A DNA stretch of 64,000 bases from the NCBI RefSeq assembly GCF_009914755.1, contig NC_060936.1, one strand, 5' to 3'. The stretch comes from the human T2T-CHM13v2.0 reference genome, Homo sapiens. Below are positions 30,446-58,856 of the stretch, piece after piece. Position 1 is the stretch's first letter; each line of letters starts with the position of its first letter. The notes under the pieces are model-generated. The model was not told where the DNA came from. It did no database searches and saw only the letters and a list, made by a program, of their open reading frames with translations. Both the position numbers and the translations under genes were made by a program.

Positions 30446-33169
30446 CAAGGAATTGGCTCATGGCTAGGCAATTCCAAAATCCATAAGGCAGGCTGCCAGG
30501 AAGGGCAGGCTGGGACTCTCTAGCAGAAGCCAAAGCTGCTGAAGCTGCTGTCTATAGGTAGAAATTCATGTTTATCAGGGAAGCCTTAATTCCACTCTTA
30601 AGACCTTTCAACTGATATTGAATCAATTTCACCTAGATTATCTAGGATACTTTCCCTTACTTAAAATCAACTGGTTACGGACTTTAACGAAATCTACAAA
30701 ATACCTTCAATAAATATCTAGATTAGTGTTGGATTGAGTAACAGGGGACTATTGCCTAGCAAAGTTGACACATGAAAAAACCATCCCAGGTAACTTCCAC
30801 ACAAAATCATGGCCAGAGAACAATAGTACCAGAGCAAGACTTTTCCCTCTTCTTTGAATTCCCCATCTTTGAGGCTGGAGGGCTGCATCACTCCCCCACT
30901 GCTGGTTTGTGAGAGCTGTATGTAGAGGAAAACAAAAATTAGCCGGGCGTGGTGGCAGGCACCTGTAATCCCAGCTACTCGGGAGGCTGAGACAGGAAAA
31001 TCGCTTGATTCTCCACCCAGGAGGTGGAGGCTGCAGTGAGCAGAGATCGTGGGCTGCACTCCAGCCTGGGCAACAAAGTGAGACTCTGTCTCAAAAAAAA
31101 AAAAAAAAATTGAAACAAAAAATGAATTGGTTATAAGAATAACATTTTGATTTAGATTGGATTAAACTTTCTCAGTCAAATGAGACTGTTAGAGTAGCTT
31201 AAATTTATTAGAAGAGCTAAATGATTTGTCTGATAAGTTGTCCAAGGGTATGGAGGCTCTGGTTGGAGAATAAAGCTCTTTCCTGATTGCAATATATGAA
31301 TTCTGTTCATTCAATAAGTTGGTCATATGTATAAAGTAGACGATTGCTAAATATAACATTAGTTATCACCTTCAAAGCTTATCTCTTCGCCTCCGCGTCT
31401 ATTCTCTTTGTCCTCTCTCATTTGTTGTTTTTGATGGCTACTCTATGCTTTTACTGAGAATAGAAGAATGAGAAAACCAGCTTAGATTGCGTATGTGAAA
31501 TACTAGAAAGTGAGATTGTATTTTCCTTCTCTGATGACTTTACAAATAGAATGATTAAAAAGTATTTTTCTCTAATAATTTGTGTACACAGAAACTTAGG
31601 ATTGACAAAACGATCTTATTTGTTCTTGACATATGTATAATTTTATGCTTTTTTAAAAAACTTTTTTTTCTGTTCATGGCCTTTTCCTCTGTTTCTTCTT
31701 CCTCATGACACCACTTTAACAACTGATGTCTTACTACACATTATTCTCATTATCTCATTATAGGATTTAACTGCCCTCTTTCGGTCAATGCCAGTAATTG
31801 CACCATTAATGACAGTTGCTAAAGCAGTCAGTCCAGTGACTTTTCAGAGGGTGCTGAGATTACAGATTCTCTTCCAGGATTCTTTGTTTGTTTAGTAGCC
31901 AATCAAGGGTAAAGTCTCTTCTATTCAATCACTAGAGGAAAAACCATTTTCTCACTACCTTGATTCTAGAAAAATTTGTGCATTCTTTTGATAATACTCA
32001 GACACAAATAGTTCTTTAGTGGCCATTCAATTATTCCCTTTGTTACTGTACATTTCCAAGATAGATTATTTGATTAGCAAAAATGCCTGCGCAATGCATT
32101 CAGGTTATTGCCAGGTATGGACACTACTAGAATGACAGTGAGTAAGAGAGAAAAAAGAAATGATACCTTTCAGTAAGAAGGAAAATGGAACTATCAATAA
32201 TAGAAGGCTAATTAGTAAAGAAAAAGTCAAGAGAAGATAAGACTGAGAAAAACTTCAGATTCTTAATAAAAAGAAGGCACTCAATTATAGGAAAGTAAAC
32301 TTTCTGAAAAGTAGGAGAGAAGTAGGATAGTGGTAAATTTGCTACCATTTTGAAATGGTCCATAATCATGAATATATAATTTCAGTATATGGCACAGACT
32401 CATTACAGAATCACACAGTGCTAAGTTCCTAGGCCTTGTCTGTCCTCGAACAATAGTATATAATTTAACTTCTCTCGCCTCATCTTGACAGATAAATACC
32501 ATGCTATCCATTTTTCTGTTTAAGCGCCTTCTGTGTTGGGCTATCCAAGTCAGGAAATCTTTCCTTAGTATTCTGTAGGACCCATTAGGTTGAAATCAGG
32601 AGGTTTTTCACCATTTGATGGTTTGGATCTATAAGAAGGACACTTTCATATTGTTCAACCCAAATATTTATTGTCCTGTCATGAAATAGCAATGATATAT
32701 TTGGAATGTCAGCTAGCTTTTCTGTCCAGTGCCTCCCTCCCATCTTCATCTCAGATATTAAATTTTACTAAAACTTACTTTTATTTAGAATGTAATTCTT
32801 CTGAATCACTTTCAGACTTTCTGTTTTTATATGTGGTTGTGTGGTCTGTGACATCACAGGACATTTTCTGAAAGGGTGCCTCACTATTGTCTCTGGGGTT
32901 GTTTTCCAAACTATTGAAAACTATTCTGCAGATCTTCATGCTCAAAATGTTTTGATCTTACAAGAACTTATCACTGAAAGATTTCAAACAACAACTAGAA
33001 TTCAGATTCCTTTTTCAACTGCTTATTAAACGGTTCATTGATTGAAACATTGAGAGATTGTAGTTGTTCAATGGGAATGTCAATGGGAAGACAACTAAGT
33101 TTATGCATGAAGAGGGAAAGGCAAGTGAATCACGACCACTGCCCACCTGACAGCAGCTGTGCAAAATGC

Positions 33170-45160: not shown

Positions 45161-46971
45161 ACAGCAGGTCCTCCAATAAGATTGTTCCTGTTCAACCTCG
45201 TTTTGTTATAATGTTGATGAGACAATGGCCAGGGCCACCTGTCTGTGTGGAGTTTGCGTATTCTCCCCATGTCTGTGTGGGTTTCCTCTGGGCACTTCGG
45301 GTTCCTTGCAAATCCCAGAGATATGCACATTAGGTTCGTTGGCACATCTAAATGGTCCTAGTCTGAGTGTGAGTGTGGGTGTGAGTGTGCCTGCGACGGG
45401 GTGTCCTGTGCAGGGTTGTTCCCACCTTGGCCCTGAGCTACCAGGAAAGGCTGTGACCACCTGTGACCCTGAACTAGAATACACAGCTTGGAAAAAGAAA
45501 CAAAGAATGAATACATAATTTCACAATAATTTGTGAAATTAATGGCTAAGAATGGGATCCATCAGATGTCTACCCTGTGAAGTAGATGATAATCATACAG
45601 ATACATGGCAATAAATGATGCAGGATGAAAATGCTCGCGACCCCACCACATTTGTTCTCATTTGTTGTTGAACTGCATGCTGGTAGGAGGTGCTACTTCC
45701 TACCAAAACTTTGGTTTGTAAACATTTCTTCCTTGATTTAACCCATCACCACTAAGGAAACCATCCCTATAAACTTTATAAAATTAATCAGGGAAGAAGG
45801 GAGGGGGAGAAATGAAAATAAACCCAGCTTGCAGCACACTCAGCATTAAGCACTAGGTCAGCCTGTGCTCGGACCTGCTTCCTCCTAGTTGTTTGCTGCC
45901 TGTTGCCCTAGAATCACACAGACCCTAGATCGTAGTTCCCCTTAACTGCTCTACAGATAACAACTTGAACATTATAAAATGCAAAGTTTTCCATTTGAGA
46001 TATCCTTTCAGGTGCTGCATACTAATGAAACTACTGACATCAACTGGTCTGAAGGACCCCATAGGAGCTGACTCACCAAAGAATGCAGTTTCCATGTCCT
46101 GATGAATTCATTCTCCTTACCCCAGCCAATCAATGGTCCCAATTCTCCAGCTCCTCACCCTCCATGATCCCCTTAAAAGCCCCAGCCCAGAACTCTTCAG
46201 GGAGGTGAATTTGAGGGTCCCCTCACATCTCCTCACTTGGTGCTCTGTGAACGTTAAACCCTTTCTCTGCTACAAACCCTGCTGTCTCAGTGTAACTGGT
46301 CTGTTATTGTGCACTGGTCATACGAATCTGTTGGTCATGTAACACTATGAATGCTGTCACTCAGTGATTCACCATAAATTGGGGAGTCGCCTTGTTTTTA
46401 TTTATTTATCATGTTTATTTCAATGTTCAATATTAGAAATGTTTTGGGTCTTCATTTAGAAGTTTGGTGATGTTTCTGTGATCAGATATATGCTGTAGAA
46501 ACAGCTCATTTTATTTTTAAAATTTAAATATAATTTTTATTACCAAGGTTATGTGCAAAATTTTAAAAAGGCAAATTTTCCTATGACTCTTTATGAAAAA
46601 TAATAGTTCATGGACTTCTTTAATCTTTAATTTTTATGGATACATAATAGTTGCATGTATTTATAGGGTACATGTATTTTTATACAAGCATACAACGTGT
46701 AATGATCACTTATAATTGGGATATTCATCACATTAAACGTTTATTATTTATTTGTTAGGAGCTTTCCTAACACAATTCTACTATTCTAGTTATTTTTAAA
46801 TGGAGAGTAAATTACTGTTTACTATAGTTGCTCTATTTTGCTACTGAACACTAGATCTTATTCCTTGGTTATATTGATTAGCCTAGGGTAAAATTGGTTT
46901 TGTTCTATGTCATGTCATTTAAAGTTGCAGTTTCTAAGAACCTATCAATGGTGTTAAGAGAGGATCTACTA
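45161..46971. mobile_element. MER6-like DNA transposon, split by an ERV1 LTR (~45753-46343) and an L1 fragment
   Basis: ta|cagcaggtcctc start; gtctgtgtggagtttgcgtattctccccatgtctgtgtgggtttcctctggg core; ...gaggatctacta end. Confidence 0.7.
45753..46343 (+). mobile_element. ERV1 solo LTR (LTR26-like)
   Basis: gaaaccatccctataaactttataaaattaatcagg start; ...gtcatgtaaca end; cacta flanks both sides. Confidence 0.55.
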
Positions 46972-46972
46972 T

Positions 46973-47208
46973 ACAGGTTGAGCATCTCTAATCCAAAAAT
47001 CTGACATCCAAAGTGTTCCAAAATCTGAAACTTTTCAAGTGCTGAAGTGATGCTAGGAGGAAATACTCACTGGAACATTCTGGGTTTCCAGTTTTTGGAT
47101 TAGGGATACTCAACTGGTAAGCATACTTCAAATATTTCAAATCTAAAAAATTCAAAATTCAAAACACTTCTGGTCCCAAGTATTTTGGATAAGGGATACG
47201 CCACCTGT
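46973..47208. mobile_element. Tigger4a/MER46-like MITE
   Basis: TIRs caggttgagcatc...gatacgccacctg with TA target sites. Confidence 0.75.
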
Positions 47209-47797
47209 ACTTATTTATACTTCTCCAATAACACGTGATTCTGTCACACACATAAAACTGATATCCAGATGTTTTTCAACCCAAAGTCATACAAATGGTC
47301 AGTGGCAGATTTTGGACCAGAAGTTAAGCATTTCTAATTCCATGAAATTGTCGTAATATTATGACTCCCACCTAAACATAACTTATTAATTAATTGATTG
47401 ATTGATAAATTTTCACCTTTCTGCAATACGGAGCTTCTATCTAGACAGGCCAGTCATTTTACCTGGTGCTAAAATAAACCATTTCTTCTGCTTTTGCAAA
47501 AAATGTTTCCACTCAGATATACTCTACACTCTTGTCACTAATCTTCAGTTTAGAAGTTTTTTCTTGGAGTGAAACTTTCCCAGATTGCCATTACATTGCT
47601 TTGCATATTCTGAGGTTCTGCAGTAGTGAGGCTGTTGTGAATTGTTCCTAAATTTATGCTAGGTGCTCTTACCTCAATTTGGATGCCATTATTTGTTTAT
47701 TGCAAATACAGGGTACAATGAAAAGCAGTAAGTGCGCATGGAGTAAATTTGCATTAAATGAAGAAGGAATCAATTATAGAGTCTCTAGAAATACATA

Positions 47798-47803
47798 TTT
47801 ATT
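47798..47803 (-). terminator. PolyA signal of the fossil terminal exon (candidate LINC00612 3' end)
   Basis: tttatt on + strand = AATAAA on -, about 100 nt past the fossil stop codon; A2M has its signal about 90 nt past its stop. Confidence 0.6.
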
Positions 47804-49419
47804 TGCCAACCTCATTCAGTATCTGTATTGCAGGGACAAAATATCCTTTTAAAAAGTCGTGGGTCTGGGGATTCCAGCCAAGTCTTGTTTATAGACACAA
47901 GCCTCAAACATTTTCTTGCTCTGTGCCTGTGGAGAGAAGAGGAAAGCGAACAGGATGACTTCGGGCTTGCCAAGGAGTGAATTTAATTCTAATTGGATAT
48001 GGACAGCAGCAGGGCTTTGCTAAAGGAGACCAAACTGGTTATGGCTGAGAATGGAATCCATCAGATATCTACCCTAATCACAGGGTAATTTCATTTACAC
48101 TCTTCTGATAAGAAAATCAGGAAACCTTCCAGGAAGTTAGTGTTCCTCTCCAAAGCTGTATAGTTCTGCGTTACCTTGCAGTATGATAAATCTGATATCA
48201 ACTAATAAAAGATGTAGATGATTTTGTATTTAGGAGGACTGCTTTTGAGAGCAAAATGAAGGCTTGGGATATGTAGAGCAAACTGCCTATCGGCTGCAGG
48301 GGACACTGTATTCAGCAAATTTGCTTCATCTGAAACACACAATGGGAGAAAAGCTTGAGAATGGGAGCTTCAACGGGACAGGGCTATGTGGAGAGGCTTT
48401 GACCTATTTAAGGACTGCAAACCATACTGAATCAGGGCCTGCGTGATCACAAAAATGTCAGCTCACTGGGGAAATATATAGACATGGTCAAGGAATTTCC
48501 ACTCTTGATACCATTAGTATAATCCGTTACTCTGGTGGAAAATCAAAGCCTGCTCATGCTACAGTGTTCAAGCAAAGTACTAGGGGGGATCACGCGGGTA
48601 TGTGTTCTTTCAGTTCTTGTTCCATATTTGCTTCTTTTTTCTTGCATGATATTTCTTATATGTTTTCCTCATCTGAAAGACTTAGCATAATTCTCTCCAT
48701 AAATCAGTATAATACCCACGATTTATATTCCAGCTGAAATTTTACTTGGGGGGTGTGTGTGTGTGTGTGTGTGTGTATTTTAGGGATGGGGTCTCACTCT
48801 TTCACTCACTGCAGCCTCAAACTCCTGGGTTCCAATGATCGTCCTGCCTCAGCCTCCTGAGTAGCTGGGACTACTACAGGTGTGTACCAGCATGCTGGCT
48901 GATTTTATTTTTCAATTTTTTGTAGAGATGGGCTCTCACTTAGTTGCCCAGGCTGGTCTCAAACTTCTAGCTTTAAGAGATCATTCTGCCATGGCCTCCC
49001 AAACTGCTGGGATTATAGGCATAAGCCACTGTGCCCAGCCTCTTCATTTGCTGTTTAAAGACCACTCAACGCTATAGTTCTCACCCCTCTCTTAGTTCCT
49101 ACTATAATTATTTGTATAGTTCTTAGGCTCTTCTTTATTTCTTTGCATTGCTATATTATCTTTTTAAGATTTATGTATGCCTTTATTTATAAGCACTTCT
49201 ACGTAAAACTCTTGGTACTTTGGATTATTTTGCACGACTGATAGGCTTACATATCAATATACATGTATATTACAGGTAGTTTTGGCAGTAGTTTTGTAGG
49301 CCAAGGAAGAAAAAATAAGTTATGGAGACAGATTAAACTGAAAACAAGATGTACAAGGGTTTACCACACTTTTATTGCTTTAAGAATTGAGGTTTGGCCT
49401 CCACTTCCACCCTTGTTGC

Positions 49420-49715
49420 TACTATCTCAAGTGAAATAACTCAGAAACAGGAGGTCAAATACTTCACATTCTCACTTATAAGTGGGAGCTAAATAATTTG
49501 TACACATGGACATAGAGAGTGGGATAACAGATACTGGAGACTCAGAAGGGTGGGAGGGTGACAGGGCAAGAGGGATGGGAAATCACTTAATGGGTACAAT
49601 GTACTCTAATTGGGTGATGGCTACACTCAAAGCCCAGACTTCACCACTGTGCAATGTAGCCATGTAACAAAACCATACTTGTACCCCCTAAATCTATATA
49701 AAGTAAAAAAGAAAA
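49420..49715 (+). mobile_element. L1MA 3' end fragment in a fossil intron
   Basis: ctcacttataagtgggagctaa...gtacccccta aatctata followed by an A-tail. Confidence 0.8.
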
Positions 49716-50616
49716 AAACCCCAAACACATTGGCTTTTATTTTATTTTTCCATCAAAGACACCACACTGGAAAGAACTGAGTTTATCTAGGATTCTGTTT
49801 TGCTCACCTGTCTTATAGTAATCATAGGCTTTCACAAAAGCAGGTTTCAGCTTTCTTATGGGGTTGTCTTGCAGAAGAGTGAAAGAAAAGGTCAGTGTTC
49901 AATCCGTAACCCAAGAAAGGAAGGAGTAATAATGCGGAACCAGGGAGGCCTCATCTCTTTTTCCTTAGCATCAGTCTTCATCCTTTGAAAGATAATTTTT
50001 TAGTGGGCTAATAGGATTCATTCTCTAATTCATTGTGCTCCCTAATGGCTCACATAGGGAGCAGTTGGAGGGTGATGTGGATTTTAGAGTAGGAACCTCA
50101 GGAACTTGAGCAGAGGCTCCCAAAAGTAGATTAGAAGTTTATTAGTCTTTTAAACGATTAAAATAATACATATTCCTCCATAATATCCAACACATGGCTC
50201 TGCCTATAGTGAGAGATAGATTCTTTATACTGGCAAGCTGACTCTATCTATATTAATATTAATATTTCCAAATATTCAGGAAACAGGCGTACATCAGGGG
50301 CTGTTCTTTTGCTGCAAATGAAGTTGATGGAATTACACTGTGATACGACTGACTGTGAGTAATAGATCTAGACTGATAGCATATCTGTTTATCATCTGTA
50401 TCTAATCTGTCATCTACCTTATTTATCTATTATCTATCTAGCTATCTCTCTATGTATAATTTATCTAACTTCTCTCATACATGTATGCTAAGGTAAGGTT
50501 GATTTAATCACTGACAACCCTTGGAAACACTTCCTATCCTTGATTACCAACTTTCAACATGGCTTCTGGATGATGAAGCTTATTTATGGAAAAGAATGTT
50601 TATCTGAAGTATACAG

Positions 50617-50765
50617 AAATATTCATATGCTCATTTTAATATAAACAAACATATATGTTTTAATATAAACATATAAATATTCATATGCTCATTGTAATAT
50701 AAACAAACATATATGTTTTAATATAAACATATAAATATTCATATGCTCATTTTAATATAAACAAA
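50617..50765. repeat. AT-rich tandem repeat, ~58-bp unit x ~2.5
   Basis: aaatattcatatgctcattttaatataaacaaac... recurs three times. Confidence 0.85.
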
Positions 50766-51889
50766 TCCATACCTACTGGCCTCCCCCAACCCTCTTGTCT
50801 GTGACACTCCAAATCCCAGGAAGCTTGCGATGAGGAATGAGGATGTAAAATATCTCACGTGAACAGAGAGGATGTGCTTTTCCAAATGGCCTTCCTAATG
50901 ACTGCTCTTCTCGTACCACGTGCTTGCCTGGTGATGAGATCCCCTAGAAGGACTGTTCACCTGGGTCTGTCTAGCAAGGCTGGCAGGGGCCCCACCTGGT
51001 CCACAGAAATCAAGATATGGTTGTTGTGCACTTCTGTCCTGCTCACGTGGCTAGATCTTTCAAGCTAAGGAAAATAAGAGAAATCACCAGTGTTACTGAA
51101 TAAAGAAAGCCTGTGGGGTACAAAGAGACAAATAGACTATGAGATTGAAGAAGTCTATACATAAACAAAGCTGGGGTTAAATTCATTTAAATGAGTTCGA
51201 AGACACTTGTCCAGTAAGATGAAAACATATACAGAGTATTATGAATACCACCACATTAGATACAAGATTGAATATTCATATGATTAAGTAACAGGCGTCT
51301 TTAGCATTTGTTTGAAGGTGAGGGAGAAGTGTCCTCACATTGGATAGCTAGTCATCTGAGATGATTTGCAAAGCCATCTGTCTCTACACTGCCATTCATC
51401 TCAGCTTTCTCTACATTTCACAGTACTTAAAGACTATGCCAATGATTTTGGTACTTAATTATATCTTGCCCTGAAATGTCATTTGACAGTTTTGGTTACC
51501 CATGTGTAATATTTTTATCTAGAATGTATCAGCACCTAGCACAATGCTAAATATATATTTGGTACTATATGAATTCAATTTCCTTAGATTATGACCAATG
51601 TTGCTTTGACATTATTAGGATACCATTGTTTTATTCTTACATTGGATTAAAAAAATCCAAACACCTAGCACCTATTTACCATTTTCACTGTGGGTTTCAA
51701 TGGATAAAACCAGATATCAACTTGGATACATCCAAGATTAGACAGCTCCCTGTGTAACTATAGATATAAGAAAGAAAAATAAGCCTCAGTGTCTTTTGAA
51801 TCTTGCTCTCAGTTAAGGTTCAACATAAGCCCTGACATCTTTATTTATTTTTGTTTTTATGTTTAATTTTATATATGCATGTATGTATG

Positions 51890-52509
<620 letters not shown>

Positions 52510-54139
52510 CAGCCCTGGCATCTTTAAGTAGCTTTGCTAACTATTCCTGTGTCCTTAGTGGTCTTTCAACTGCTGGGAATAAATAGCCTTTACTGTCAGT
52601 GTGAATAGTTCTGAAAACTAACTGCATGATAGAACCACCTACAGAGTTCATTAAAAACATAGATGCCTGTTAGCCCAACGTGGTGGTGGGCGCCTATAGT
52701 TCCAGCTCCTAGGGAGGCTGAGGCAGAAGAATTGCTTGAACCTGGGAGCAGAGGTTGCAGTGAGCTGAGATTGCGCCATTGCACTCCAGCCTGGGCAACA
52801 GAGTGAGACTCCATCTCAAAAAACAAAAAAACGAAAACAAAAAACAAAAAACGCAGATGTCTGAGCACATCCCCAAAAATAATTAATTAAATCTTTATTG
52901 ATGAGACCTGGATATCTGCATTTTAAAATAAATTCTACAAAGGATGCTAACCAGATTTTAGAATTGCTGGTATATGTCGCTTCTTTATAACTTATATGTT
53001 TTGGATTAATGATGATCTTTTTCGTCACGTGAAGACTATCTTCACAATTAGACTATAAGATTTCTCTAGGTAAGAGACAGTATATTTATATTTCCTGTGG
53101 TTACTCGAATATGATTTTGCTTAATTAATATGTCTTGCTTTTGTGAAACACATTTAACTTGTCTACTGATGATGGATCAAATTGTGAATATTATTTCCTT
53201 TTTTCATCCGAGAAGCTAGGATTAAATTCCTTTAAATGAATTTGAAGAATTTTGTATTTATAACCAGAGTCATGGGTTGTATTCCAAGTAAAGCTTTTTT
53301 TATTTTTTATTTTTTTATGAGATAGGATCTCACTATGTTGCCCACACTGGTTTTGAATTCCTGGGCTTCATATGATCCTCCCATCTCAATCTCCTGAGTA
53401 GCTGCCAGATAAAGTTTTTGAAAAGTGTTGTTGAATTGGGAATCTTTTTTCTCTTAGAAAAATAGAATTAATTTTTTTTTAATAGAGATGGGGCCTTGCT
53501 ATGTTTTCCAGATGTTTGCCAGGTTGGTCTTGCACTCCTGGCCTCAAGCAATCTTCCTACCTTGGCCTCCCAAAGTGCTAGGATTACAGGTGTCAGCCAC
53601 CGCACCTGGCCATTGTGCCTGGCCAAAAAATATAATTTTAAAAAGACCAGAAAGACTTTTCTTTAGAGGTAAAGATGAATGAGCCTATGTTAAAGTGTCA
53701 TTGAAAGAAATTATTAATGGTCAGTCGTGGTGACTCACCCCTGTAATTCCAGCACTTTGAGAGGCTTAAGTAGAAGGATCTCTTGAGCCCAGGAGTTTGA
53801 GACCAGCCTGGGCAGCATAGCGAGACCCTATCTCTACAAAAAATAAATAAATAAGATGAAAAAGAAGTTATTTATTCTTCGATCATGATGGCAGGCAATC
53901 AAAGAATCTTGGAGGCATACTAGTTAGAGCTTTTAACCCCACAGGTCTTCATTGTCCACATCGGTGATGACCATTTTTTTAGTAGACAAGGCAAGAACTT
54001 AATGAAGAGAATTACTTTACGTTTCTTGAATTTACTACTGAAGAGTTATAGGTAGCTAATAGCTAATATTTTCGTAGCTAGTGTTGGGACACGGAAACCA
54101 ACCCCCCAAAATATGGTGCTTTGATGGGCTGAACTGTAT

Positions 54140-54735
54140 AGTATATCTGATATATTTATATAGTGTATAAAAAATCACCTGACACAATAGATGGATAATA
54201 TATCTGATATATTTATATATCGTATAAGAAATCACCTGACACAATAGATATGTAATATATCTGATATATTTATATATTGTATAAAAAATCACCTGACACA
54301 ATAGATGGATAATATATCTGATATATTTATATATTGTATAAAAAATCACCTGACACAATAGATGGATAATATATCTGATATATTTATATATTGTATAAAA
54401 AATCACCTGACACAATAGATGGATAATGTATCTGATATATTTATATATTGTATAAAAAATCACCTGACACAATAGATGGATAATATATCTGATATATTTG
54501 TATATTGTATAAAAAATCACCTGACACAATAGATGGATAATATATCTGATATATTTATATATTGTATAAAAAATCACCTGACACAATAGATGGATAATGT
54601 ATCTGATATATTTATATATTGTATAAAAAATCACCTGACACAATAGATGGATAATATATCTGATATATTTATATATTGTATAAAGAATCACCTGACACAA
54701 TAGATGGATAATATATCTGATATGTTTATATCAGA
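54140..54735. repeat. 57-bp minisatellite (VNTR), ~10 copies
   Basis: Unit aatcacctgacacaatagatggataatatatctgatatatttatatattgtataaaa; gives the 19-aa periodicity seen in the ORF track. Confidence 0.95.
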
Positions 54736-56468
54736 TATATTATACATTTATATATTATACATATACATTTATATATATACATAATAAATACATTGTATTA
54801 TACATATATGTATATATTATACATATACATTTATATGTATAATATAGTTGACATATTTATATATTTATATCGGATATATTGTACATTTATAATATATTTA
54901 TTATATTTTATATTATAGTATATTATCATTTATAATATATTGTTATATGTTATATGATATATATTTATAGCAGACATAGTAAATATCTATTGTGTTAGGT
55001 GATTTTTTATACAATATATAAATATATCAGATATATTATACATTTAAACAGTTAAACACCTAAACAGCCCAATTTTATGTGGATCAGTACTACTAACGGC
55101 TTAGGGTAAAATGACAGCTACAGCGTAACTAGAATGTTAAAGTGGCATGTCTCAGACAACGTGGATGGACATAAAGTATTTGAGAGAATATTGCATAATA
55201 GAAAAAAACATTGTAAAGACTAAAATACTAAATAAGACCTTTTTTTCCCGAGCAATAATTTGCCCAGGCTGGTCTCAAACTCTTGGCCTCAAATGATCCT
55301 CCTGCCTTGGCCTCCTAAAGCATTGGGATTATAGGCATGAACCACTGCTCCTGGCCAGAATTCTTGATTAAACAATAGGGTCTAAATAAATTTAAACCCC
55401 TTTTATTCTTTTTATTCTTACAGGGTAGACTCAAATATTCTATTTCTTTCCAACTTTATATTCTTGTCATAACAACCCAGTATTCTCTGAGGCAAATGGA
55501 TGCTTATGACCAACTGGCCTGAAATGGGGGAATATAGGGTTAGTGGTGAGTCACATATAAGAAAATGCAAGAGAATAGCAGTGTATCATATTTCAAAATA
55601 AAATACAAACTATACATAAAACTGACCCCAACAAGTATCCATTTCATTTCCTGTCGTGTATCTATATGCTTTCCTGGAAAGAATAAACTTCAGTTCACAA
55701 AATCAGATGTAGAAGATACATCACTTTTAAAAATTCTACGTAATTTTAATTCCAAGATTCCCATGCCACCAGGCTGGTGGGAAATCCAGTTTTAGTTGTA
55801 ATTAGGCCTTTTCTCCAGTATTACATATGAATTTGAGTGTAATACCCCAAAACTTGAGAAGGCCATTGTATCTCCAGTCCACTGGGGCAATGAATAGCTT
55901 GAGCACCTGATCATTATAATGACCCAGATGTGTATCTTTTTCTTTTACTCTGCGGTGAGTTTTTCTAAGGGAGGAATCCTATTTTGTTTAATTTTGTATT
56001 ATAGCATGGGATATTGTGCCTGGCAGATAGTAGGCAATCAGTTAGTATTTCAGGAATAAACACTCTTGGTCAGTGATACAGCTAATGATTTGCAACAAGC
56101 ATATCCTTAAAGTACCTTTTCAGTAACGATTTCCATATGAACAAAGAAAAAAACTAGAACCAAGAGGTAAAATTATAATCCTGTTGTCTTGTTCCCATAG
56201 CCATACTCTGATTTCTTTTATGTTCTGTGCCCTGGCTTGATACTTAATTTGACAGCTAATTATAATGTTTATTAAGCTCTGAAATATACTTTCTCCTGGC
56301 CTTTTTGTCTGAAGTTGTTTGAGGTGTCACCATGGTTGGAAGTTAAGAGCATGGAAGCTAGACTTCTTGGTCTTGAATTCTAGCTTTGTCACTAACTTAG
56401 TAACTTTGGGCAAATTACATGTCTCTGCTTCAATTTCATTTGTTAAGGTAGTACCTATTTCACAAGGC

Positions 56469-58856
56469 TGATGGTGGCAGCAGTGGGGCGTCCAGAGCTG
56501 CCGCTGCCATCACGCCAGCTGCAGCAGGGAGGGGCGGGCAGCGGCGGCGGAGCAGCTGCGGGAGCCGCAGTGGCTGCTGTGGGACATCTGTGCCTCGCGT
56601 CCCCTGTGCCTTGAGACCCCAAAGCAGCCGACTGCGCCGCCACCATCCTCGCGTTGCCGGGTGGGGCGACGTGCTCCCCGGCCAGGAGCCTCCACCGCTC
56701 CGGACCCTGGCCCTATGTCGCCGCTCTCGCCCGCCGCCGCCGCGGAGTGGGAGTGGGGAGGAGGGGAACAGTCCTTGGAGCCGGCCCCGGGAGTACTCCC
56801 GGAGCCTGCCGCCCTGGAAGCCGCCACGATGGACCGGGCTGAGTCGCCCGCCGGAGGGGAAGCAGTGTAGTCGGGCACGGAGGGGCAGGCAGAGAGGGGC
56901 CCCAAGGCGGAGCTGGGTCCGGGGCGGAGCGGTGTTCGCACACAAAGCGCTGGGGCTGGACCCAGGGTTCGGGGCCAAGGCGAGAAGTGGGAGCGGGGCC
57001 CGCTTTGGGGACCCGGACAGCGGTGTGGCCACCGCGCACACCTCCGACAGCGCCGCATTCCTGGGCCTTGGGAGGAGGCTCTGAGTAGGGCCGCCTGGGG
57101 CGCGTCTTCAGGGTCCTCCCGGCACTGGGGTGACCGCCGAGCTAGACGCGCCTGAGGGCTGAGCCCCAGGGCTCGTGATCTGCTCCCGGAGGCGCCCCCC
57201 AGGCAGGGCCGTGAGCCGGGCGAGGGAGAGTCCTGGGCTGCCCCTGAGCCCCGGGGCCACGGGAAGAACTTGCAGCGACGTCATCCCTGCCCCGGACACA
57301 GTCCCGGGCCCAGGGAGGACCTGGAACATTCCCTTCCTCCCCCCCCCCCCCCGCCCCCGCCCATCAGCCCAGCCTGCAAGGAGGCGCCACCGGACCTGCA
57401 CACTCAGGAGCAGGTGAGCCAGGGACAAGCAGGAGCCCCGCCCCTTCCGAACTGGTGGAGCAGGAGCTCCCAGGGTGCAGCTGCAGCCACCTTGCCGCGG
57501 CTGTGGACATTTTCTGTGCTCTCAGAGGCCCAGCAAAGTCCCCTGCCCACTGCAGGCTCCAGGGTGCCTACTCCGGCTGCCTGGCTTCTCTCCACTGTTA
57601 GCACCCACTCTGAACTCAGAGCAAGGTCGGGCCGAGCCTGGGTACTGTCACAGCCTGGCCGAGCGTGCACACGCTCAGGACAGTGCTGATACGCCAGCCC
57701 CCTGCCGTCTCGGCCCCCTTTGGAACTTGGGCACCAACAAGCGTGGGAGGGAGGCTGAGAGGGGTCTGAAGACAGCTGGACACTGACTTGCAGGCGCTCC
57801 TTGGCATGAACAGCCTGGGAGCAGGAGGCAGACAGGTTCCTGGGTGGAAGGGGATGGGTCCCCAGTGAAGTCCCACCCTCAAGCTGGTGAGGGCTTGAAG
57901 CCTGCAGACCAGAGAGGTAACTTGTGGTGCTGCTCCCTGGGCCCACTCATGGCTGCCCATGGACCAATCAGCATGCATTTCCTCCCTCTGAGGCTCATAA
58001 AATCCCCCAGACTCAGCTAGATTGGAAGAGAGGATGGGAAGACAATGGATGACCTACCTGTGGAGAGAAACTACCCATTCCAGAACCTCCTCTCTGCTGA
58101 AAGCTGAACACTCAATGGGAAGACCTGTTTGCAGAGAGGAGCCAGCCACTCCAGGGTCTCCGTTCTGCTAGAAGCTGAACACTCGTTGGGACACCCTTGC
58201 TGTGGAAAGGACATCCTTACTGTGGAAATGAGCTACTAACTGCAGGTCTCCTTCCTCTTCATCTTCCTTATCCTTCTGTTCCATTGCTCAGTAATGCTCC
58301 TCTTCATCTGTCTCATTCTCCACTTGTCTGCTTGATGCAGGAGCTGAGGAGCTGCACAGCAAGGTTAAAAGAGCTGTAACACAAACAGGGCTGCAACATG
58401 CCCCTTGCTCCCCACAGGGAGAGAAGAGCTCTGGCCCTCGGAGAAGCCCAGACCTGGGAGCTCCTTGAGCCCGGGCTGTGACTCCCTCTTTGGGGCCCTG
58501 GTTGGCGTCACTGCATTCGCCAGTGCCACTGTTGGAAGCTGCTTGTGATGCGCCTGGTCCAGGGGGAAGCTGTTTGTTGTGTGCCTGGTCCAGCCACCTC
58601 ATGGAGAGCCTGTGCTGGCACCTGGAGCTGCCCAACCTGGGCAGCAGCTTGTGTGTGTGACTGCACAGTGGCCACGCTTGCTCACACACCCCTAGCACAC
58701 CCCTCTGCTCCACCCGTCTCAATCTCCCTTGGATCCGGGATCCAGGTTGGTAGCAAGTGCGAGTGGGCAGAAGCAGCCCAGTGGGCCTAGAGCAAAACTC
58801 AGGCAAAGGTGCCACTAGACTGGCCAGGAAAGCGACACCCTAAAGATCCCATAATG
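56469..58856 (+). mobile_element. Long MER52-family (MER52D-like) ERV1 solo LTR
   Basis: tgatggtggcagcag...gccgctgccatcacgccagctgcagcagggagg start and gcgacaccctaaagatcccataa end match recalled MER52 termini; homologous to the 42.6 kb copy. Confidence 0.75.
56480..57450. promoter_or_regulatory. CpG island; probable bidirectional promoter of LINC00612 and A2M-AS1
   Basis: Very GC- and CpG-rich with GC boxes (ggggcggg, cccgcccc); the only CpG island in the window. Confidence 0.8.

What the first reader, a model, noticed from the sequence alone, without database searches (positions are those of the whole stretch)
47904..51064. Fossil may be the lost human orthologue of rodent murinoglobulin / alpha-1-inhibitor III
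The relic differs from A2M at diagnostic positions: DQ|VT at the exon 33/34 junction (A2M has DK|VS), TFSF (A2M SLFF), FAEYS (A2M IAEYN), and a C-terminus ending NV (A2M DLGNA). As recalled, murinoglobulin/A1i3 have DQVTNQTLxFSF, AFAEYSSPCS and end in QNV, and PZP ends TEHGNV. Also as recalled, the mouse Mug genes lie between A2m and Klrg1, which is exactly this position. Humans have no functional murinoglobulin, so this could be a unitary pseudogene. A PZP-like origin remains a real alternative.
Basis: partly seen in the sequence, partly recalled or inferred. Interest (0 to 1): 0.8.

Follow-up and report, generated by a model that had tools for sequence, protein, structure and literature searches.

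The report
Dead murinoglobulin-like gene tail in LINC00612
The lncRNA LINC00612, next to human A2M, is built on the broken last five exons of an alpha-macroglobulin gene that is most likely the lost human counterpart of rodent murinoglobulin, an ordinary pseudogene relic that seems not to have been described.

Summary
On the minus strand lie recognisable copies of A2M-family exons 33-36 (51064-47904), and a fifth, exon 32-like, at 51757-51680. Exon lengths and phases match the family. The lesions are a net 13-nt loss in exon 32; an AG>GG acceptor and a TGA in exon 34; and a 1-nt deletion and a dead donor in exon 35. Exons 1-31 are absent. LINC00612 reuses the relic's exon-33 acceptor, exon-34 donor, exon-36 acceptor and AATAAA.

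The relic is not a recent copy of human A2M or PZP. Exon DNA is 72-75% identical to each, against 82% between A2M and PZP, and the introns do not align.

In protein trees with 46-62 named mammalian macroglobulins, it falls inside the Mug/MUGL clade (guinea-pig murinoglobulin-1, horse, rabbit, beaver and others). Placement over all 106 branches gives Mug/MUGL 0.92 of RELL resamples, PZP 0.04 and A2M 0.02. AU tests do not formally reject PZP (p 0.20) or A2M (p 0.10).

The relic lies just downstream of A2M on the KLRG1 side, while PZP and the PZP2-type pseudogene lie elsewhere. This fits the published "MUGL lies next to A2M".

This is a new member of a known kind, of moderate interest.

The parts
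51680..51757 (-). Exon 32-like relic. It is 78 nt against 91 nt in A2M and PZP, a net loss of 13 nt with a frameshift near 51705-51704. Acceptor AG and donor GT are intact.
   Evidence: tblastn; DNA alignments (82.7% identical to PZP and 81.3% to A2M over 75 aligned bases).
50996..51064 (-). Exon 33-like relic. It is 69 nt, phase 0 and open (23 codons), with AG acceptor and GT donor intact. Its first base is the first base of LINC00612 exon 2.
   Evidence: (84.1% identical to PZP, 79.7% to A2M); the annotation table in the finding.
49808..49910 (-). Exon 34-like relic, 103 nt. It carries an in-frame TGA at 49901-49899, and its acceptor is GG instead of AG at 49912-49911. The donor GT is intact, and the exon's last base is the last base of LINC00612 exon 2.
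   Evidence: PF07677, 27.8 bits; 72.8% identical to both PZP and A2M.
48289..48329 (-). Exon 35-like relic. It is 41 nt against 42, with a 1-nt deletion near 48321-48320. The bases after it read AG (48288-48287) where PZP and A2M have the GT donor. LINC00612 skips this exon.
47904..47926 (-). Coding part of the exon 36-like relic. It is 23 nt, as in PZP (A2M has 17), and ends in a TGA stop at 47906-47904. The acceptor AG is intact, and 47926 is the first base of LINC00612 exon 3.
47777..47903 (-). Former 3' untranslated region. AATAAA lies at 47803-47798, 21 nt before the annotated LINC00612 end at 47777.
   Evidence: the annotation table in the finding.
56455..57257 (-). LINC00612 exon 1, G+C-rich and head-to-head with A2M-AS1. 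It is not derived from the relic: no macroglobulin similarity was found here.
   Evidence: five full-length queries, E up to 1, no hit between 51757 and A2M's own exons; the annotation table.

Best explanation
This is the 3' stump (exons 32-36 of 36) of a dead alpha-macroglobulin gene of the Mug/MUGL lineage. It is the human positional and phylogenetic counterpart of rodent murinoglobulin / alpha-1-inhibitor III and of horse and rabbit MUGL.

Shown here:
- The stump encodes no protein. It carries a frameshift in exon 32, a lost acceptor and a nonsense codon in exon 34, and a frameshift and a lost donor in exon 35.
- Exons 1-31 are missing from the 8 kb between the stump and A2M's 3' end.
- The surviving signals (exon-33 acceptor, exon-34 donor, exon-36 acceptor, AATAAA) are the ones that shape exons 2 and 3 of the lncRNA LINC00612, which starts at an unrelated G+C-rich promoter.

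Inferred:
- The boreoeutherian ancestor had A2M, PZP, PZP2 and MUGL as separate genes.
- The human lineage lost MUGL long ago, through one or more deletions of about 40 kb or more together with neutral decay.
- The tail was then picked up as lncRNA exons.
For: 1. Family membership.
- Solved A2M receptor-binding domains match at E 4.9e-9 and 4.4e-5.
- PF07677 matches above its cut-off.
- Exon lengths (69 and 103 nt; 41 against 42; 23 nt) and phases are kept.

2. Old age.
- Exon DNA identity is 74.5% to PZP and 72.4% to A2M. PZP against A2M is 82.3%.
- K2P distances are 0.319 and 0.353, against 0.207.
- Outside the exons, their immediate flanks and shared Alus, nothing aligns. The same holds for PZP against A2M.

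3. Clade.
- A full-length tree of 62 proteins gives three clades, each at 100*: Mug/MUGL (11 rows, including guinea-pig 'murinoglobulin-1 precursor' and Fukomys 'alpha-1-inhibitor 3-like'), PZP (16) and A2M (35).
- The relic sits inside Mug/MUGL at 100/100, and at SH-aLRT 100.
- Over all 106 branches, RELL proportions are Mug/MUGL 0.917 (c-ELW 0.900), PZP 0.042, A2M 0.017, the two deep stems 0.021 and PZP2 0.002.
- PZP2 placement is rejected (p-AU at most 0.0115).

4. Signature. The relic reads DEA-x-FAEYS, against Mug/MUGL DEAAFAEYS, PZP DES(V/A)(V/I)AEYI and A2M DEFAIAEYN. Its KLKPAF compares with NLKPA(L/F) in Glires Mug rows and DLKPAI elsewhere.

5. Position.
- The human genome holds five exon-34-like loci: A2M, PZP, the relic, a PZP2-type pseudogene at C12:9.21 Mb, and the hit at C12:8.86 Mb, taken from recall to be A2ML1.
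- The relic is therefore an extra locus, lying tail-to-head behind A2M.
- PMC12874980 (section 26) says horse MUGL lies next to A2M, syntenic with the mouse and rat Mugs.

6. Loss of constraint. 7 of 49 positions that are at least 95% conserved in 46 intact proteins are changed in the relic. The median for intact proteins is 1 and the maximum 3.

7. The LINC00612 exon borders coincide with the relic's splice sites (and the annotation table).
Against: - AU tests do not reject holding the relic with the PZP clade (delta lnL 9.68, p 0.196), with the A2M clade (9.05, p 0.0998) or with primate PZP (12.63, p 0.053).
- Raw identity does not discriminate: 67-72% to the 11 Mug/MUGL rows, 66-73% to the 16 PZP rows (the best single row is Marmota PZP at 73%), and 60-71% to the 12 of 35 A2M rows printed.
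- Only three columns separate Mug/MUGL from PZP at 65% consensus. The relic sides with Mug/MUGL at two and with PZP/A2M at one (H at column 42).
- The relic nests among rodent rows rather than outside Glires, which the species tree does not predict. This points to a thin signal on a long branch.
- A quartet count on human DNA (relic+PZP2P 14, relic+PZP 9, relic+A2M 7) joins the two pseudogenes, which could be long-branch attraction.
- No call showed that the mouse Mugs lie on the Klrg1 side of A2m. That is recalled.
- No Mug/MUGL genomic DNA from another species could be compared.
Confidence: 0.8

Rival explanations
1. The relic is the tail of an old PZP-lineage duplicate that ended up on the other side of A2M. 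It would not be a MUGL orthologue.
For: - AU p is 0.196 for relic + PZP clade, and the highest p-AU on a PZP branch is 0.177.
- The only other match returned for relic exon 34 in the human genome was PZP at 79%.
- The 23-nt last coding exon and the EQ/DQ|VT and FSF motifs are shared with PZP.
- The best single identity is to a PZP row.
Against: - Only 0.042 of RELL resamples fall in or at the stem of PZP.
- All three tree runs put the relic in Mug/MUGL.
- Exon 35 is 24/35 identical to PZP but 27/33 to A2M at DNA level. At protein level it reads like Mug/MUGL.
- The 23-nt last exon and the motifs named above also occur in Mug/MUGL rows.
- This reading needs an extra duplication and a move across A2M, although a gene of the right clade is reported at that place in other mammals (PMC12874980, section 26).
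Confidence: 0.08
2. The relic is an old partial tandem duplicate of the 3' end of A2M itself.
For: - It lies immediately downstream of A2M in the same orientation.
- AU p is 0.0998 for relic + A2M clade, and the A2M stem has p-AU 0.209.
- Exon 35 DNA is closest to A2M.
Against: - RELL support is 0.017.
- The last coding exon is 23 nt, not A2M's 17.
- The relic differs from A2M at DK|VS, SLFF, IAEYN and GNA.
- A partial duplicate starting exactly at an exon 32 with an intact acceptor is no simpler than a deletion.
Confidence: 0.04
3. The relic comes from a further, otherwise extinct paralogue that branched near the split of A2M, PZP and MUGL.
For: - The stem placements are not excluded: p-AU is 0.441 for the Mug/MUGL stem and 0.336 for the (Mug+PZP) stem.
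- The relic is about equally distant from human PZP and A2M in DNA.
Against: - The two deep stems together take 0.021 of RELL resamples. The Mug/MUGL stem takes 0.077 and branches within the clade 0.840.
- Equal distance from PZP and A2M is also what a MUGL relic would show.
- This reading adds a gene for which there is no other evidence.
Confidence: 0.05

Closest known systems
Murinoglobulins / alpha-1-inhibitor III (rodent Mug1, Mug2 and others) and MUGL of horse, rabbit, rhino, hippo and pangolin (Braschi et al. 2026, PMC12874980)
   Same: The relic has the same family and clade by tree placement. It shares the DEAAFAEYS-type signature and the Glires-type non-D residue before LKPA. It lies adjacent to A2M (paper, section 26).
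   Different: The human copy is a five-exon stump with at least five disabling lesions and no exons 1-31. The others are intact genes of about 1,450-1,500 codons. AU tests do not make membership formal.
PZP (pregnancy zone protein), human chr12, on the other side of A2M
   Same: Both have a 23-nt last coding exon, the Q|VT junction, the FSF motif and an ending in NV. Exon DNA is 74.5% identical.
   Different: PZP is intact and lies elsewhere in the cluster. Its exon 35 signature differs (DESVVAEYI). The relic does not group with primate PZP (delta lnL 12.63, p 0.053).
PZP2P, OVOS1P, OVOS1BP and OVOS2P: the four human A2M-family pseudogenes named in PMC12874980
   Same: All are dead members of the same cluster. 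Some are transcribed, and one (OVOS1BP) was first annotated as a lncRNA (paper, section 19).
   Different: None of them is of the MUGL lineage. The PZP2-type locus at C12:9.21 Mb keeps its exons 32-35 with splice sites, and it groups with PZP2-type proteins, away from the relic. The paper's main text does not mention LINC00612 or KLRG1 (0 occurrences of each).

Membership tests
Alpha-macroglobulin family, receptor-binding domain (Pfam PF07677) | Sequence match to the domain model above the curated cut-off | tested here: met
   Exon 34-like scores 27.8 bits against a cut-off of 21.7, E 4.1e-6. Exon 33-like alone (23 aa) gave no Pfam hit but matches solved A2M chains at E 4.4e-5.
Alpha-macroglobulin family, receptor-binding domain (Pfam PF07677) | Family exon structure at the 3' end (exons of 91, 69, 103 and 42 nt plus a short last coding exon, with the same phases) | tested here: met
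   The relic has 78 (broken), 69, 103, 41 (broken) and 23 nt, with splice sites at the matching places.
Alpha-macroglobulin family, receptor-binding domain (Pfam PF07677) | Intact reading frame and full set of domains (a functional member) | tested here: not met
   There is a TGA in exon 34, frameshifts in exons 32 and 35, and lost splice sites. No exons 1-31 were found.
Mug/MUGL clade | Falls inside the clade in a phylogeny with A2M, PZP and PZP2 | tested here: inconclusive
   The relic is inside the clade in three runs, with RELL 0.917 and c-ELW 0.900. However, AU does not reject PZP (p 0.196) or A2M (p 0.0998).
Mug/MUGL clade | Clade-typical residues in the last exons | tested here: met
   In the three columns that separate Mug/MUGL from PZP at 65% consensus, the relic has the Mug/MUGL state at two (A, S) and the PZP/A2M state at one (H). 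It also has F before AEYS, as 11 of 13 Mug-type rows do. The basis is thin.
Mug/MUGL clade | Position next to A2M, between A2M and KLRG1, in the same orientation | tested here: inconclusive
   The human side is shown: the relic lies 8 kb downstream of A2M, on the same strand, towards KLRG1 (annotation table). For other species, only 'next to A2M' is in print (PMC12874980, section 26). The side in mouse is recalled. Three literature searches found nothing on it.
Unitary pseudogene | No intact gene of the same lineage elsewhere in the genome | tested here: met
   A whole-genome six-frame search with A2M exon 34 returned five loci: A2M, PZP, the relic, a PZP2-type locus and the hit at C12:8.86 Mb, taken from recall to be A2ML1. 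None is a second MUGL. The tool scores only the best candidates, so this is not exhaustive.
Unitary pseudogene | Intact orthologues in other species | tested here: met
   Eleven full-length named proteins form the clade, including guinea-pig murinoglobulin-1 precursor. Their function was not tested here.

The most novel reading that the evidence does not exclude
MUGL was a fourth, separate macroglobulin gene of the boreoeutherian ancestor. It was not a rodent invention, and it was not a made-over PZP.

Stem primates lost it through a deletion of exons 1-31. The surviving splice and polyadenylation signals were then recruited into LINC00612. The tail of a dead paralogue would thus serve as a cis-acting RNA that modulates its surviving neighbour A2M. 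One paper claims that LINC00612 acts on the A2M promoter (PMC9985899, abstract only seen).
Probability: 0.15. Interest if true: 0.55.

Novelty: new member of a known kind. Interest (0 to 1): 0.4.

Why it matters
Two papers frame the question. Cheong et al. 2016 (PMC5142107, passages seen) state that murinoglobulins are 'absent in humans' and an 'exclusive introduction' in rodents. Braschi et al. 2026 (PMC12874980) found MUGL in horse, rabbit and others. They left open whether Mugs arose from PZP in species that lack PZP, and they name four human family pseudogenes, none of them MUGL.

A MUGL stump beside an intact human PZP argues that the two were separate genes in the common ancestor. It would also add a fifth human pseudogene to the family list.

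The relic also explains the exon structure of LINC00612, a lncRNA with a growing functional literature. Its annotation as 'intergenic non-coding' hides a protein-coding past.

The practical value is modest: a nomenclature entry, and a caution for people who study LINC00612.

Tried and rejected
- **Relic as search bait.** The same stretch, lengthened into the intron and read with X at the TGA, found no scorable candidate. The relic shares no exact 5-residue word with intact relatives. A real A2M exon was then used as bait, followed by the horse 1482-aa protein.
- **Mouse gene order.** Searches for text giving A2m-Mug-Klrg1 found nothing usable. PMC11484026 (passages seen) did not help.
- **Prior mention.** Searches for the relic in print found none: LINC00612 + A2M (17 papers, listing seen); LINC00612 + pseudogene (12 papers, listing seen); unitary pseudogene/Mug terms; C12orf33 (0 papers).
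- **Representative library.** One search returned unnamed proteins only. Four were used as Mug-type and PZP2-type rows and typed by motif and tree position, not by name.
- **Raw identity and consensus tallies** proved too weak to decide between Mug/MUGL and PZP.
- **RNA families.** An Rfam scan of 46000-58500 found no family.
- **More relic exons.** A search for further exons in the window, with five full-length proteins, found none.
Full report
**What is there**

Read on the minus strand, the window holds five pieces that match the last five exons of alpha-macroglobulin genes.

- Exon 33-like (51064-50996) is 69 nt and open, with an AG acceptor and a GT donor.
- Exon 34-like (49910-49808) is 103 nt. 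It has a TGA at 49901-49899, and GG stands where the acceptor AG should be.
- Exon 35-like (48329-48289) is 41 nt instead of 42. It is followed by AG where A2M and PZP have the GT donor.
- Exon 36-like begins at 47926 after an intact acceptor. Its coding part is 23 nt and ends in TGA at 47906-47904. AATAAA follows at 47803-47798.
It is 78 nt instead of 91, a net loss of 13 nt, and both splice sites are intact.

The matches are not chance:
- Exon 34-like hits solved A2M receptor-binding domains at E 4.9e-9 and exon 33-like at E 4.4e-5.
- Exon 34-like passes Pfam's cut-off for PF07677 (27.8 bits against 21.7).

Five full-length proteins (human A2M, macaque PZP, horse, rabbit and guinea-pig Mug-type) found no further relic exon in the window at E up to 1. 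Only 8 kb separate exon 32-like from A2M's 3' end, so exons 1-31 are gone.

**Relation to LINC00612**

The annotated exons of LINC00612 are 56455-57257, 49808-51064 and 47777-47926.

- Exon 2 starts at the first base of relic exon 33.
- It runs through the unspliced intron 33, whose downstream acceptor is dead.
- It ends at the last base of relic exon 34.
- Exon 35, whose donor is dead, is skipped.
- Exon 3 starts at the first base of relic exon 36 and ends 21 nt after the old AATAAA.

The lncRNA's second and third exons are thus laid out by what is left of the old gene's signals. Exon 1 has no macroglobulin similarity.

**Not a recent copy**

The human genome (handle G000) holds five exon-34-like loci:
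- A2M
- PZP
- the relic
- a locus at C12:9.21 Mb
- a locus at C12:8.86 Mb on the other strand, taken from recall to be A2ML1

I read the 3' ends of PZP (L003) and of the 9.21-Mb locus (L009). The 9.21-Mb locus groups with PZP2-type proteins.

Over exons 32-36, DNA identity is as follows:

| Pair | Identical / compared | Identity | K2P |
|---|---|---|---|
| relic - PZP | 234/314 | 74.5% | 0.319 |
| relic - A2M | 223/308 | 72.4% | 0.353 |
| relic - PZP2-type | 196/308 | 63.6% | 0.504 |
| PZP - A2M | 265/322 | 82.3% | 0.207 |

Outside the exons, their immediate flanks and shared Alus, the relic region does not align with either gene's 3' region. PZP and A2M do not align with each other there either. 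The relic is therefore at least as old as the PZP/A2M split, and it has a longer branch.

Seven of 49 positions that are at least 95% conserved in 46 intact proteins are changed in the relic. The median for intact proteins is 1 and the maximum 3. This is what neutral decay would give.

**Which lineage**

The large protein database holds vertebrate proteins with source names.

A full-length tree of 62 of them gives three clades, each with support 100:
- A2M, 35 rows.
- PZP, 16 rows, from xenarthrans to primates.
- A third clade of 11 rows. It holds guinea-pig 'murinoglobulin-1 precursor', Fukomys 'alpha-1-inhibitor 3-like', chinchilla, beaver, two rabbit proteins, hedgehog, pangolin, hippo, white rhino and the horse 1482-aa protein.

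The horse protein's length matches the MUGL that Braschi et al. describe. Inside the third clade, Glires and Laurasiatheria separate, so the gene predates their split.

I read the relic through with X at its three breaks (104 residues) and added it to the last 650 residues of these proteins.

- It falls inside the third clade at 100/100 and inside its rodent part at 99/98.
- The result is the same after adding two unnamed muroid-like Mug-type proteins, three PZP2-type rows and three outgroup rows (100/100 and 98/98).
- It is the same under a site-heterogeneous model (SH-aLRT 100 and 98).

These supports overstate the case, as two further tests show.

AU tests do not reject the alternatives:

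| Relic held with | Delta lnL | p-AU |
|---|---|---|
| PZP clade | 9.68 | 0.196 |
| A2M clade | 9.05 | 0.0998 |
| primate PZP alone | 12.63 | 0.053 |

I then grafted the relic onto each of the 106 branches of the fixed backbone and resampled columns:

| Placement | RELL proportion |
|---|---|
| within Mug/MUGL | 0.840 |
| Mug/MUGL stem | 0.077 |
| PZP (stem and within) | 0.042 |
| A2M (stem and within) | 0.017 |
| two deep stems | 0.021 |
| PZP2 | 0.002 |

For Mug/MUGL as a whole, c-ELW is 0.900. PZP2 placement is rejected (p-AU at most 0.0115).

The signal comes from few sites:
- The relic reads DEA-x-FAEYS. Mug-type rows read DEAAFAEYS, PZP DES..AEYI and A2M DEFAIAEYN.
- A non-acidic residue precedes LKPA, and F follows it, as in Glires Mug rows. 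Guinea-pig has NLKPAF.
- The relic has DQ|VT and TEQ-NV.
- Against this, H at column 42 is the PZP/A2M state.

Overall identity does not discriminate: 67-72% to Mug-type rows and 66-73% to PZP rows.

**Position**

The relic lies 8 kb downstream of A2M, on the same strand, towards KLRG1. PZP lies on the other side of A2M, and the PZP2-type pseudogene lies beyond PZP (annotation table).

Braschi et al. [quoted passage not shown] Their text does not say on which side, and I could see neither figures nor supplements.

No call confirmed it.

**What is known**

- Braschi et al. name four human family pseudogenes (OVOS1P, OVOS1BP, OVOS2P, PZP2P). Their main text has no occurrence of LINC00612 or KLRG1.
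- Cheong et al. 2016 (PMC5142107, passages seen) call murinoglobulins absent in humans.
- Searches for LINC00612 with A2M or with pseudogene, and for C12orf33, turned up no paper whose title or abstract start (listings only) points to a macroglobulin origin.
- Databases outside these tools, such as GENCODE or pseudogene catalogues, could not be checked.

**Verdict**

It rests on tree placement, a small set of signature residues, and position. An old PZP-lineage or A2M-lineage origin is not formally excluded.

This is a new member of a known kind, a transcribed unitary pseudogene stump. Its interest is moderate:
- It would add a MUGL pseudogene to the human family list.
- It argues that MUGL and PZP were separate ancestral genes.
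- It explains the exon structure of LINC00612.

Noticed in passing
window 30869-30909, minus strand: The unusual C-terminal tail of the horse 1482-aa MUGL model (P0113) matches this spot at 12 of 13 residues (tblastn E 0.001). The spot lies about 17 kb downstream of the relic, on the same strand, just after an Alu and a pyrimidine-rich stretch ending in AG. The Alu part has many copies in the genome. The matching part was not found elsewhere (40 of 723 candidates scored). It may be the human counterpart of an alternative last exon of perissodactyl MUGL. If so, that would be further evidence that the two loci correspond.
   Followed up: partly
window 50617-50765: A 58-bp unit is repeated 2.6 times at 97% identity inside the relic's retained intron 33. 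It therefore lies inside LINC00612 exon 2.
   Followed up: no
window 54138-54731: A 57-bp A+T-rich minisatellite has 10.4 copies at 96% identity. It gives a spurious 224-codon open frame on the minus strand and lies in LINC00612 intron 1.
   Followed up: no
L009 (G000:C12:9208001-9218000), minus strand: The PZP2-type pseudogene keeps exons 32-35 with AG/GT splice sites. It has an in-frame TGA in exon 32. Whether this locus is the one long called A2MP1 was not settled here.
   Followed up: partly
proteins P0096 and P0165 (Microcebus murinus): The mouse lemur has two A2M-clade proteins reported from a contig of the same length. They are sisters in the trees at 100, which points to a lemur-specific tandem duplicate of A2M. 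No primate protein of the Mug/MUGL type was among the best 120 hits to horse MUGL.
   Followed up: no
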